From the NCBI GenBank assembly GCA_964106645.2, contig OZ067045.1: a DNA stretch of 64,000 bases. One strand, written 5' to 3'. Every line of letters starts with the position of its first letter. Positions within the stretch are counted from its first letter, which is position 1. The position numbers were made by a program. Source of the DNA: Podarcis pityusensis (Eukaryota). Of the stretch, positions 23,376 through 26,300 are shown in pieces.

Positions 23376-26300
23376 GGTCTGCCGAGGGCATCTTGTCTTT
23401 AACCCTCCCCCCAACAAAACCTCTCACCCAGGAGCCAGCAGAGTTTGTATTTGAACACACAGCTGGTGGATGGGTGAGAAGTGGGTGGGGTGGGGTCCGC
23501 CCTCTCTCCCCACAACCGCAACACCTCACAGAAAGCCCCCGTGCACACAGCACCTGGGAGAAAAAGCAAACATTTAAAAACAGGAAAAACTGCTGAGGGC
23601 AGCAAGAAAGAGCTTGGAAAATAAGGGCCTGCTGCTGAGGGTGGCAAGGACATCTTCCTTTGGGAATCGATGGACCTAGGAAACTGGGAGGGGGAGGAAC
23701 TCATACAGAGGCTTTTGCTCCACCCGGCTCTCCATTCTGAATCCCAGGTGGCTAGTTCAGATGAGGTCCACCACGCTTTCCTGACTGTCCACGCACTGAA
23801 CGTGCTCACCGGCCTCCCTGCCCAAGGCCTGGCCATGCACTTCTCTAAGCTGGAGGATCCCCAACGTCCGTGGGCAGAGCTCATGAGGAGGTAGGAGGGG
23901 ATGAAGGGGGACAATCTCCCTCCCTCGGTAGGGCTGGGGCCATTGCAGTTTCAGCCTCATTTATTCCGTTCCAGCAAGACAAACCCTGATGGGCGCTTGG
24001 ACAGAAACAGCCCAATGCCCAGGGAGCTGAAACCTGGCACCTATAAGCTGCGCTTTGAGACGAGGGAGTACTGGGAGCAACAAGGATACAGCAGCTTCTA
24101 CCCTTATGTGGAAGTAAGTTTGGTTCCCAGATGAAACTCACAACTGGGGGGGGGGGAGGCTCCTTCCTACAGGACTGATGATGGCAGGGACCACCACTCA
24201 CTGCCCTTTGAGGGATGTAATTCTTGGCAGGAGAAGCACAACATTGGAAAACGGGAGAAATCAGCATAAACTTCACATTATGAAGGCTGCACGCCGTGAA
24301 GTCCCTCAGAAACCTGCAGGAAGAGGCCTAGGTGGTTGGTAGGAGAGCTAGATGTTGTGCTATGGGACATCCCTGAAAGAGCACAAAGCCAGAAGTGTGC
24401 CAGAACTGGGCACTCCGGACCAGGCATTTGTGCCCCTGACAAATGTCTTCTCATGGGCTAGGCCCAGTGCAGCGAAGAAAGGATCTCAGACCAAAGAGCA
24501 CTACCAACCTCCTGCTATTCCCCCCTCCCTTGTCTTTACACATCCTCTTGCTTGTCTCTCTCTTTAGATTGTCTTCACCATCACAGAGGAAGAAAAAGTG
24601 CACATTCCCTTGCTGCTCAGCCCTTATTCCTACACCACCTACAGGGGAAGCTAGTGGGAGACCGGCCAGCAGGAGGGGCTGCTTCAGCAAACCGGGGTGC
24701 CTGTTCTGAGAGAGCTGGCACAGTCCAGCGGATGGAGAGCTGTGGTTACATCCACGGCCACCTCTGGCCCAAGCCTCAGGCTGGGGGCTTGGCCATGAGC
24801 AGCTGCCTCGTAGTAAATGTGAGAGTAATCTAAAGACTGATACTTGTAAGCCTCTTCTTTTAAATTGGAGATGCCATGAATTGTGTCTGGGTCCTTGACA
24901 CACGTGTGCTCTACTGATTAGGTAGGGCTCCCTCAGTTGCTGGGGAACATGAGTGGGGAGAGGGCTGCTGCACTCACATCCTGATTGTGGGCTTCCCAGA
25001 GGTATCTGCTTGGCCACTGTGGGGAACAGGATGCTGGACTAGGTAGTCCTTTAGCTTGGATCCAGAAGTCAGGCTCTTCAGAGGTTCTCACATTGGATGG
25101 TGCTTGAGTGGACACAACATGGGTGTGGAGGACTTTGGAGGCTCTAGATAAGGTGGGATTAAGTAGTTCAGGGGCTCATTAATCAAGAGGAGGATGCTTT
25201 TCAAGTCCGCAAGCTCTGCCTTGACGTGGGTGGGAAAGAAAAAGGGAGGCTTTGCAGAGACTGAAGACTGAATAGCCCACCACAGGGCCTCTTTAATACA
25301 AATGAGGGCTGGAGCAGACACAATCTCATTCCAGGGGGCTGCTCTCTCCCTCCCTCCGTCCCCTCTACGGCCACAGCAGGAGCGGGACAGAGGCTTGCTT
25401 GCACACAAGGCTTAGGCTGAAGGCATTCCAAAGTATGATGTCAGGCTGTGCTACGTGGGGGTTGAGACAAACCCAGCAGGGCCCTGGCCCAGCGTGTGGC
25501 CGATCACGGAGGTCTCCAGGGGCTTGAAGCCCAAATTGTCCAAAGGGATCCCAAAGGCTGTGAGCTTGGCCTCATACGTCCGCAACAAGTCATTGTGGGC
25601 CTGCAGTGGGAGGCAATTGCAGGTTGAGGAGAGGGATCAAACATCACATGCCATAACACAGCCACCTAAGGCAACTTCTCTTGTCTATGGGTAATAGCCA
25701 ACCCAATGCACCCATGGCAGTCGCGGCTGCATCCATATTTCTCCAAAAGGATGCAAGAGAGCAGGAAAAGGCCAACTAAAATGGTTGCAGGCTAGACCAT
25801 TTCAAGGAACAAATGCTTAGAACAAACTTGTTAACTTAGAAAAATGGGGCTGAAGGTGAATATGATGCAACTTGGTAGGTCAGATGGAGCAGTGGCTAGT
25901 ACAACACTTGTCAAACCCATCAGCTGTTCACTGAAATGGGTAGGCAGTGGGCATTAGAAATGACAGAGGAAGTACTTATTCACACTTCTTAGCATTAACC
26001 TATGGAACTCACTGCCACAGGACAGTGAATTCCTGCTAGCATAAATGGCTTTCAAACAAGGCATAAGTAAAAGCCAACTGCTAGGGAAAATATATTTCTT
26101 TCCTGGGTTGTGTCTAAAGAGACCTGCTCTCTACATTTTGCTCCAACAGACATTCAAGTACAATTACAGGGTTCTCCTCAGCTGGAGCTCTTACCTTGCA
26201 CACTCTGGCTAGCTCATACTGCAGATCCTTGATGGCATTGTTTTTCGAATCCAGCACATCCTGTGAAGGAAGGTTGTTCAGGTGTTAACACATCAGGCAA

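What the first reader, a model, noticed from the sequence alone, without database searches (positions are those of the whole stretch)
23748..24654. HIUase active-site residues intact in a uricotelic reptile, with no peroxisomal targeting exon
Seen: LTVH (His), DGR (Arg), VHIP (His) and terminal YRGS are all present. DGRC is changed to DGRL and the following loop is divergent (DRNSPMP). No RLx5HL-type PTS2 exon was found upstream. Established: these residues form the HIUase site; the Tyr of YRGS blocks the central channel, which is open in hormone-binding transthyretin. Inference: the domain is probably still catalytic or urate/HIU-binding rather than a thyroxine carrier, and would act extracellularly, e.g. 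on HIU from oxidative or peroxidase-driven urate breakdown. This would be a second secretion of this fold, independent of transthyretin.
Basis: partly seen in the sequence, partly recalled or inferred. Interest (0 to 1): 0.66.

Follow-up and report, generated by a model that had tools for sequence, protein, structure and literature searches.

The report
Ordinary stand-alone HIUase gene beside cadherin fragment
This is an intact copy of the enzyme gene URAH (5-hydroxyisourate hydrolase), already known to survive in birds and reptiles; it most likely makes an ordinary protein that stays inside the cell, and nothing found here shows that it is secreted or fused to the cadherin pieces lying just upstream.

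Summary
The sequence observation holds. Three canonical + strand exons (23748-23890, 23975-24113, 24568-24654) tile the HIUase/transthyretin profile. They end in YRGS-stop and keep 10 of 10 published HIUase active-site residues. Each exon is nearer to HIUases than to transthyretins.

An in-frame ATG at 23670 adds 26 codons containing RLLLHPALH, a PTS2-like nonapeptide with its last two fixed residues swapped. This segment has no signal-peptide character.

The gene lies tail-to-tail with a GAS8-like gene, with an AFG3L-like gene further on. Chicken URAH is listed as a 2.7-kb gene near DBNDD1 and CDH1. Published RNA-seq reports high liver Urah expression in birds, Anolis and turtles.

The fusion idea rests on a partial type-I cadherin (EC1-EC2 only) at 19664-22282, same strand. 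Its last donor is phase-compatible with the AG at 23746-7. No signal or prodomain exon was found in 30 upstream ORFs, and no transcript data were available.

Best reading: a stand-alone intracellular HIUase with a degenerate PTS2 (about 0.6). A chimera is about 0.13. Exons were searched separately; the joined protein was never assembled.

The parts
23573..23578 (+). TTTAAA, the only TATA-like hexamer in 23000-23760. It lies 92 nt upstream of ATG 23670. This is a possible core promoter, by inference only.
   Evidence: No ATG lies between 23470 and 23670.
23670..23747 (+). In-frame 26-codon extension starting with ATG and contiguous with exon 1. It is the proposed translation start of a stand-alone protein of 148 residues (26 + 122 codons).
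   Evidence: The frame is open from 23625. The start context has T at -3 and G at +4, read.
23709..23735 (+). RLLLHPALH, a PTS2-like nonapeptide. It fails the motif [RK][LVI]x5[HQ][LAF] at positions 8 and 9, which are swapped, and position 5 is His rather than a hydrophobic residue.
   Evidence: It is the only RLx5LH in six frames of the window. The chance of any canonical, swapped, x4 or x6 variant in 26-41 codons is 0.03-0.045. The motif definition comes from PMC7710942.
23748..23890 (+). HIUase exon 1 (strand A with the catalytic His at 23790-2). The AG at 23746-7 could serve as an acceptor.
23975..24113 (+). HIUase exon 2 (Asp 23988-90, Arg 23994-6, divergent loop).
24568..24654 (+). HIUase exon 3 (His 24601-3, Pro 24607-9, Leu 24613-5, YRGS 24640-51, TAG 24652-4).
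24812..24817 (+). AGTAAA, the nearest variant poly(A) hexamer after the stop codon. No AATAAA or ATTAAA occurs on this strand in 19000-27000 except at 21334, inside a cadherin exon.
19664..19810 (+). Cadherin fragment exon Ca: end of the prodomain with an LKRQKRD furin-type site and the start of EC1. The Trp2 position is Leu, with a one-residue insertion.
   Evidence: best match is the Xenopus EP-cadherin precursor 1q55, E = 3.2e-8.
20002..20145 (+). Cadherin fragment exon Cb (EC1).
   Evidence: PF00028, E = 1.4e-6.
20651..20795 (+). Cadherin fragment exon Cc (HAV motif, and the only DxNDN linker motif in the window, at 20723-43).
   Evidence: No Pfam hit for this ORF on its own.
21206..21381 (+). 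Cadherin fragment exon Cd (EC2).
   Evidence: PF00028, E = 3.5e-9.
22199..22282 (+). Cadherin fragment exon Ce (end of EC2). It ends CAA|gtaagg in phase 0, the same phase as the AG|G at 23747/8.
   Evidence: 20 of 27 residues identical to human E-cadherin.
22283..22327 (+). Decayed remainder of the cadherin exon. The EC2-EC3 calcium-binding linker motif should lie here but reads VRTGNSQ.
   Evidence: the alignments stop at residues 29-34 of 43. (no second DxNDN anywhere in the window).

Best explanation
This locus is the orthologue of URAH, a small stand-alone gene for 5-hydroxyisourate hydrolase.

**Shown.**
- Three canonical exons encode a complete HIUase domain.
- All ten published active-site residues and a free C-terminal YRGS are present.
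- The gene sits tail-to-tail with a GAS8-like gene, and an AFG3L-like gene lies further on.

**Inferred.**
- Translation starts at ATG 23670, in the same exon as the first domain exon. This gives about 148 residues.
- The 26-residue N-terminal extension carries a degenerate PTS2 (RLx5LH instead of RLx5HL).
- The protein forms the usual homotetramer and hydrolyses HIU to OHCU inside the cell. It would be cytosolic, or at best weakly peroxisomal, and probably made in liver as reported for other sauropsids.
- HIU would come from non-enzymatic or peroxidase-driven urate oxidation, or from residual uricase activity.
- The cadherin EC1-EC2 exons upstream are a separate partial duplicate and not part of this protein.
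For: **Identity and active site.**
- PF00576 and TIGR02962 are tiled by the three exons.
- Each exon ranks HIUases (7kcn, 2h1x) above transthyretins in the PDB.
- 10 of 10 active-site residues are present, mapped from the alignments onto the list in PMC13751858.
- All splice sites are canonical.

**Upstream extension.**
- The frame is open upstream of exon 1, with a single in-frame ATG at 23670.
- A PTS2-like nonapeptide lies 4 codons before the exon 1 boundary. The chance of such a variant is about 0.03-0.045, assessed post hoc.
- A TTTAAA lies 92 nt upstream of the ATG, with no intervening ATG.
- The extension has no signal-peptide character.

**Context.**
- A GAS domain and Peptidase_M41 exons lie on the - strand downstream.
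- Chicken URAH is listed as a 2.7-kb gene on chr11, near DBNDD1. A site 2.5 kb from it is annotated as both 'upstream of URAH' and CDH1 5'UTR/upstream (PMC6339939 and PMC7667380, passages read).
- Urah keeps high liver expression in chicken, canary, Anolis and turtles (PMC10517255, passages read; the supporting supplementary figures could not be seen).
Against: - No transcript or orthologue data were available, so the start codon is unproven.
- ATG 23670 has a pyrimidine at -3, which is a weak context.
- The AG at 23746-7 has as good a pyrimidine tract (14 of 20) as the accepted acceptors here.
- From recall, that AG lies at the alignment position of transthyretin intron 1. It may therefore be a real, ancestral acceptor that needs an upstream exon.
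- RLLLHPALH matches only 2 of the 4 fixed PTS2 positions, and its significance is post hoc.
- The upstream cadherin exons look constrained. They have intact frames and 10 of 10 canonical splice sites. Their two length differences from recalled CDH1 exon sizes are multiples of three. Their last donor is in the phase of exon 1.
- Exon 1 matches the family only weakly on its own.
Confidence: 0.6

Rival explanations
1. Chimeric gene. The cadherin exons (19664-22282) splice from the donor at 22283 to the acceptor at 23747. The product would be an EC1-EC2 module joined to a C-terminal HIUase domain that could tetramerise it. It would be secreted only if an undetected leader exon exists.
For: - The donor CAA|gtaagg and the acceptor cag|G are both in phase 0.
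- Cadherin homology and the calcium-linker motif end exactly at that donor. The EC1-EC2 linker DxNDN is kept while the EC2-EC3 motif has decayed.
- All five cadherin exons are open, with canonical splice sites.
- HIUase is also the C-terminal domain in natural Urad-Urah fusions, which leaves YRGS free (PMC13751858 passages; the 5z5m hits).
- No AATAAA or ATTAAA lies between the cadherin exons and URAH.
Against: - A phase match is a 1-in-3 coincidence.
- No signal or prodomain exon was found in 30 upstream + strand ORFs. Exon Ca is closed by a stop immediately upstream.
- The Trp2 needed for strand-swap adhesion is lost.
- The contiguous ATG and PTS2-like stretch argue that exon 1 has its own start.
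- Two literature searches pairing URAH or hydroxyisourate hydrolase with cadherin found only gene lists and no fusion.
- Chicken URAH is annotated as a gene on its own.
Confidence: 0.13
2. Stand-alone URAH whose true first exon, coding or non-coding, lies upstream and splices to 23748. The open frame, the ATG and the PTS2-like stretch at 23625-23747 would then be intronic coincidence or relic.
For: - The acceptor quality at 23747 is good.
- Introns 2 and 3 sit where transthyretin's do and, from recall, so does this AG.
- PTS2 often lies in a short first exon (PMC7710942, passage on Nannochloropsis).
- One candidate mini-exon exists at 19618-19659: ATG, a nonapeptide fitting the looser PTS2 pattern used, then a phase-0 GT.
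Against: - That candidate is not significant. At least one such candidate arose in 60% of 300 shuffles, and in 17% with the motif at the N-end.
- The candidate overlaps the strong acceptor of cadherin exon Ca, and its position 5 is Lys.
- The strict PTS2 pattern has 0 hits in the window.
Confidence: 0.15
3. A relic no longer under selection: intact by chance or youth, not expressed or not active.
For: - Uricase is absent from sauropsid liver (PMC10517255).
- Exon 1 and the loop after DGR are divergent, and Cys after DGR is replaced.
- The PTS2 is broken, and no canonical poly(A) hexamer follows the stop.
Against: - 122 codons are open, with 10 of 10 active-site residues and all splice sites kept.
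- Liver expression of Urah has been reported in several sauropsids (PMC10517255).
Confidence: 0.07

Closest known systems
Vertebrate 5-hydroxyisourate hydrolase (URAH; zebrafish HIUase, PDB 2h1x; chicken URAH gene)
   Same: Same fold family and same ten active-site residues. It has the same C-terminal YRGS and three domain-coding exons, and genes of the same kinds lie nearby (GAS8-like, AFG3L-like; in chicken DBNDD1 and CDH1) (PMC6339939, PMC7667380).
   Different: The nonapeptide in the N-terminal extension fails the PTS2 motif at positions 8 and 9. Leu replaces the Cys after DGR. The following loop differs, and there is a one-residue deletion before the second His.
Transthyretin (TTR)
   Same: Same Pfam family. 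Exon boundaries 2 and 3 fall at corresponding places (recalled for TTR). TTR has an N-terminal intron after a leader exon (PMC4324301).
   Different: TTR lacks YRGS and nine of the ten HIUase residues (PMC13751858). All TTR chains score below HIUases for exons 2 and 3. No leader exon was found here.
Periplasmic enterobacterial transthyretin-like proteins (HIUases with an export signal)
   Same: A catalytically intact HIUase acting outside the cytoplasm.
   Different: They are bacterial and are exported by an N-terminal signal peptide on the same polypeptide. No such signal was detected here.
Urad-Urah fusion proteins (allantoin synthase of plants and diatoms; PDB 5z5m)
   Same: They show that the HIUase domain tolerates an N-terminal partner and sits last in the chain (PMC13751858).
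   Different: The partner is the next enzyme of the pathway, not a cadherin module, and the fusion is documented at the protein level.
Type-I classical cadherins (E-, P-, EP/C-cadherin), for the upstream fragment
   Same: Furin-type site, HAV, the EC1-EC2 calcium motifs, and exon lengths of 147/144/145/176 nt against recalled lengths of 144/156/145/176.
   Different: Only EC1-EC2 is present. Trp2 is lost and the EC2-EC3 linker has decayed. No EC3-5, membrane or cytoplasmic exons occur anywhere in the window.

Membership tests
HIUase (URAH), Pfam PF00576 / TIGR02962 | Match to the family profiles over the whole domain | tested here: met
   Exon by exon: PF00576 positions 1-31, 37-82 and 83-109 (16.1, 40.9 and 40.5 bits; cut-off 25.3). 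TIGR02962 positions 3-34, 39-84 and 85-113 (14.9, 40.8 and 40.5 bits; whole-protein cut-off 87.45). Exon 1 is below the cut-off on its own. The joined protein was not scored.
HIUase (URAH) | C-terminal tetrapeptide YRGS directly followed by a stop | tested here: met
   24640-51 followed by TAG at 24652-4.
HIUase (URAH) | Ten conserved channel/active-site residues (His12, Asp50, Arg52, His103, Pro105, Leu107, Tyr116, Arg117, Gly118, Ser119; zebrafish numbering, PMC13751858) | tested here: met
   10 of 10 present, from the alignments to 2h1x and 7kcn. His12 was placed through the 7kcn alignment, which is weak overall (E = 0.83).
HIUase (URAH) | HIU hydrolase activity and homotetramer | not testable with these tools
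   This needs recombinant protein. No fold or complex job was run, because the joined protein was not to be assembled.
Peroxisomal (PTS2-bearing) metazoan HIUase | N-terminal nonapeptide [RK][LVI]x5[HQ][LAF] with a hydrophobic position 5 | tested here: not met
   RLLLHPALH fails positions 5, 8 and 9 (motif from PMC7710942). Even the canonical zebrafish signal did not target a reporter to peroxisomes in COS-7 cells (PMC8919083).
URAH orthologue (positional) | Conserved neighbourhood | tested here: inconclusive
   The GAS domain and M41 peptidase exons lie on the - strand downstream. Chicken lists URAH near DBNDD1 and CDH1 (PMC6339939, PMC7667380). The human order is recalled. No genome of a related species could be searched.
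Transthyretin | Open hormone channel (loss of Tyr116 and small residue at 16) and a secretory leader exon | tested here: not met
   Tyr is kept and position 16 is Val. No leader was found.
   Only frame compatibility could be shown. The search for a leader was negative.
Classical cadherin (upstream fragment) | Five EC repeats, Trp2, membrane and catenin-binding regions | tested here: not met
   One DxNDN motif in the whole window. Trp2 is replaced.

The most novel reading that the evidence does not exclude
A partial duplicate of the neighbouring E/P-type cadherin gene has been captured by URAH. Some transcripts would then encode EC1-EC2 joined at 22282^23748 to a catalytically intact HIUase that tetramerises it. 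The acceptor used would lie, from recall, at the alignment position where transthyretin acquired its leader exon. That would make it a second, independent recruitment of an upstream exon by this fold through the same site.
Probability: 0.12. Interest if true: 0.78.

Novelty: already known. Interest (0 to 1): 0.3.

Why it matters
If the ordinary reading is right, the locus adds one more case to a published pattern: sauropsids keep and express Urah although liver uricase is gone.

The one modestly new point is that the PTS2 appears degenerate. That would fit an enzyme no longer needed inside peroxisomes, and it is easy to test with a reporter.

If the chimera were real, it would be an undescribed domain architecture and a natural parallel to the origin of transthyretin. 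A single RNA-seq junction count would settle the question.

Tried and rejected
- **Six-frame Pfam scan.** I then sent stop-free ORFs only.
- **Cadherin leader or prodomain.** 30 + strand ORFs between 7436 and 19589 gave no Cadherin_pro and nothing above noise. Four more ORFs at 903-11507 also gave nothing.
- **More cadherin repeats.** One DxNDN-type motif occurs in six frames, so there is no full-length cadherin in the window.
- **Second URAH or cadherin copy in the window.** tblastn of each exon peptide against the window found only self-hits. Next best were EC1 against EC2 (E = 0.11-0.17) and short matches at E = 0.13 and above.
- **Canonical PTS2 exon.** None was found. The only 'ATG-PTS2-like-GT' mini-exon (19618-19659) is no better than shuffles.
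- **Transthyretin identity.** Rejected.
- **Signal peptide in the extension.** Rejected.
- **Read-through end of the cadherin fragment (22283-22534).** No Pfam match.
- **PDB sequences.** They could not be fetched for a direct N-terminal comparison.
- **Papers not held.** Keebaugh and Thomas 2010 and Stevenson 2010. Ramazzina 2006 and Zanotti 2006 were not looked up; they are known here only through citing papers.
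Full report
**What is there.**

On the + strand, three exons with canonical splice sites encode a complete HIUase/transthyretin-fold domain. They are 23748-23890, 23975-24113 and 24568-24654. Together they hold 366 coding bases, or 122 codons, with no stop or frameshift.

- Pfam PF00576 is covered at profile positions 1-31, 37-82 and 83-109 of 109, with E = 0.018, 3.6e-10 and 4.7e-10.
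- The NCBIfam equivalog model for hydroxyisourate hydrolase, TIGR02962, is covered at 3-34, 39-84 and 85-113 of 113, scoring 14.9, 40.8 and 40.5 bits.
- Against solved structures, exons 2 and 3 rank the reconstructed HIUase-TTR ancestor 7kcn and zebrafish HIUase 2h1x first, at E = 4e-7 to 9e-6. All transthyretins fall far below, at E of 0.005 or worse.
- Exon 1 is weak on its own. It aligns to 7kcn over the LT-H-LN strand with E = 0.83.

**Active site.**

A 2026 review (PMC13751858, passages read) lists ten residues lining the HIUase channel. In zebrafish numbering they are His12, Asp50, Arg52, His103, Pro105, Leu107, Tyr116, Arg117, Gly118 and Ser119. It adds that the Y116T and I16A changes suffice to turn the enzyme into a thyroxine binder.

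Mapping through the alignments, all ten are present:

| Residue | Window codons |
|---|---|
| His12 | 23790-2 |
| Asp50 | 23988-90 |
| Arg52 | 23994-6 |
| His103 | 24601-3 |
| Pro105 | 24607-9 |
| Leu107 | 24613-5 |
| Tyr116-Arg-Gly-Ser119 | 24640-51 |

Position 16 is Val.
- Leu replaces the Cys after DGR.
- The following loop differs in length and sequence.
- There is a one-residue deletion before the second His.

Activity itself cannot be tested here.

The reading frame of exon 1 does not begin at the AG of 23746-7. It is open back to 23625 and holds one in-frame ATG, at 23670. That adds 26 codons, MDLGNWEGEELIQRLLLHPALHSESQ, directly in front of exon 1.

RLLLHPALH (23709-35) resembles the PTS2 nonapeptide. 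The motif is [RK][LVI]x5[HQ][LAF] with a hydrophobic fifth residue (PMC7710942, passages read). Here the last two fixed residues are swapped and position 5 is His, so the motif is not met.

- It is the only RLx5LH in all six frames of the window.
- A family of four comparable forms (canonical, swapped, x4 and x6 spacing) occurs 145 times in 127,996 positions. The chance of one within 26-41 codons is therefore 0.03-0.045. This is suggestive only, because the test was framed post hoc.
- From recall only, the spacing between this nonapeptide and the catalytic His is within one residue of that in full-length zebrafish HIUase.

The extension is acidic (5 D/E against 1 K/R). Its longest hydrophobic run is 3 residues, so it is not a signal peptide. 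A TTTAAA lies 92 nt upstream of the ATG, with no other ATG between 23470 and 23670. The ATG context is weak at -3 (T) and good at +4 (G).

**Context.**

Downstream on the - strand lie exons of a GAS8-like gene. The ORFs span 25454-35753, and the PF13851 GAS domain is at 32162-32458. URAH and this gene are therefore tail-to-tail. Further on lie AFG3L-like exons (Peptidase_M41 at 60078-62096).

- Two chicken papers (passages read) list URAH as a gene of its own at chr11:19,105,097-19,107,786, with DBNDD1 at 19,093,976-19,096,929 (PMC6339939).
- They annotate a site 2.5 kb away both as 'upstream of URAH' and as CDH1 5'UTR/upstream (PMC7667380). A cadherin beside URAH is thus not peculiar to this window.
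- Mori et al. 2023 (PMC10517255, passages read; the supporting supplementary figures were closed) report that Urah keeps high liver expression in chicken, canary, Anolis and turtles, while uricase has moved to skin.
- Retention of an intact URAH in a uricotelic animal is therefore already in print. Keebaugh and Thomas 2010, the usual citation for it, is not held.
- No tool here established the taxon of this window. A LINE fragment at about 15900-16350 and two palindromic elements are consistent with a squamate, from recall only.

**The cadherin fragment and the fusion idea.**

Five + strand exons lie upstream: 19664-19810, 20002-20145, 20651-20795, 21206-21381 and 22199-22282. They encode the end of a prodomain with a furin-type site, then EC1 and EC2 of an E/P/EP-type classical cadherin.

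Points in favour of constraint on these exons:
- All ten splice sites are canonical.
- Exon lengths are 147, 144, 145 and 176 nt. Recalled CDH1 lengths are 144, 156, 145 and 176, so both differences are multiples of three.

Points showing it is not a normal cadherin:
- Trp2 is replaced, with a one-residue insertion.
- The last exon stops 45 nt short of the recalled length, at a good donor (CAA|gtaagg).
- Beyond that donor the EC2-EC3 calcium motif has decayed. Identity is 20 of 27 before it, and the alignments die after it.
- The window holds a single DxNDN-type motif in six frames, so no full-length cadherin is present.

The donor at 22283 and the AG|G at 23747/8 are both in phase 0. That the homology ends exactly at a usable donor is a real oddity.

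Against the fusion:
- The phase match is a one-in-three event.
- Exon Ca is closed by a stop just upstream.
- 30 + strand ORFs between 7436 and 19589 gave no prodomain or leader.
- Two literature searches pairing URAH or hydroxyisourate hydrolase with cadherin found only gene lists.

Even if a chimeric transcript exists, secretion has no support at present.

**Other gene models.**

The AG at 23746-7 has a pyrimidine tract as good as the accepted acceptors here (14 of 20). From recall, it sits where transthyretin intron 1 ends. Transthyretin's intron in the N-terminal region is described in PMC4324301.

Two readings fit. Either it is a real acceptor that needs an upstream first exon, or it is the exon-exon junction left after loss (or original absence) of that intron. 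Such a junction would also read CAG|G.

The only upstream candidate first exon (ATG, PTS2-like nonapeptide, phase-0 GT) is 19618-19659. Shuffled sequence yields at least one such candidate in 60% of 300 trials, and in 17% with the motif at the N-end. The candidate also overlaps the acceptor of cadherin exon Ca. I give it little weight.

**Verdict.**

| Reading | Confidence |
|---|---|
| Stand-alone URAH orthologue, intact active site, intracellular, degenerate PTS2, most likely translated from ATG 23670 | about 0.6 |
| Stand-alone gene with an undetected first exon | 0.15 |
| Cadherin-HIUase chimera | 0.13 |
| Relic no longer under selection | 0.07 |

'A second secretion of this fold' would not be unique in any case, because enterobacterial HIUases are periplasmic (PMC4324301).

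**What stayed unchecked.**
- Any orthologue or paralogue comparison.
- Any transcript evidence.
- A genome-wide search for a second URAH copy.
- The supplements of PMC10517255.

Noticed in passing
window 19664-22327 (+): A partial type-I classical cadherin: exon-4-to-8-like pieces encoding EC1-EC2 only. Frames and splice sites are intact, Trp2 is lost, and the EC2-EC3 linker has decayed. It has no detectable 5' or 3' partner exons in the window. Whether it is a constrained truncated gene or a young partial duplicate is unexplained.
   Followed up: partly
window 19618-19659 (+): A 14-codon ORF (ATG, a nonapeptide fitting the looser PTS2 pattern used, then a phase-0 GTAGGT). It overlaps the acceptor of the first cadherin exon. 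It is no commoner than in shuffled sequence.
   Followed up: yes
window 25454-35753 (-): A GAS8-like gene (coiled-coil exons; PF13851 at 32162-32458), convergent with URAH. GC-rich sequence follows from about 35900.
   Followed up: partly
window 58095-63821 (-): Exons of an AFG3L-like m-AAA protease (Peptidase_M41, HEAGH motif). The gene runs off the window end.
   Followed up: partly
window 21692-21818 and 21885-22020: Two palindromic, MITE-like elements in the cadherin intron, with arms of 28 nt (89% complementary) and 58 nt (88% complementary).
   Followed up: no
window 14191-14907 (+) and about 15900-16350 (-): LINE-derived open frames. By recall, one is an L1-like ORF2 tail and the other a BovB-like 3' end. 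Neither gave a Pfam hit.
   Followed up: no
window 23343-23374: (AGCA)8 microsatellite, 300 nt upstream of ATG 23670.
   Followed up: no
window 6001-8000 and 38001-42000: GC-rich stretches (0.60, and 0.57-0.62) that may be CpG-island promoters of genes not identified here. ORFs at 6665-7432 and nearby gave no Pfam hit.
   Followed up: no
window 12604-12733: A run of 130 N (assembly gap or mask), left as it is.
   Followed up: no
window 19000-27000 (+): No AATAAA or ATTAAA on this strand apart from one inside a cadherin exon (21334). URAH would have to use a variant hexamer such as AGTAAA at 24812.
   Followed up: partly
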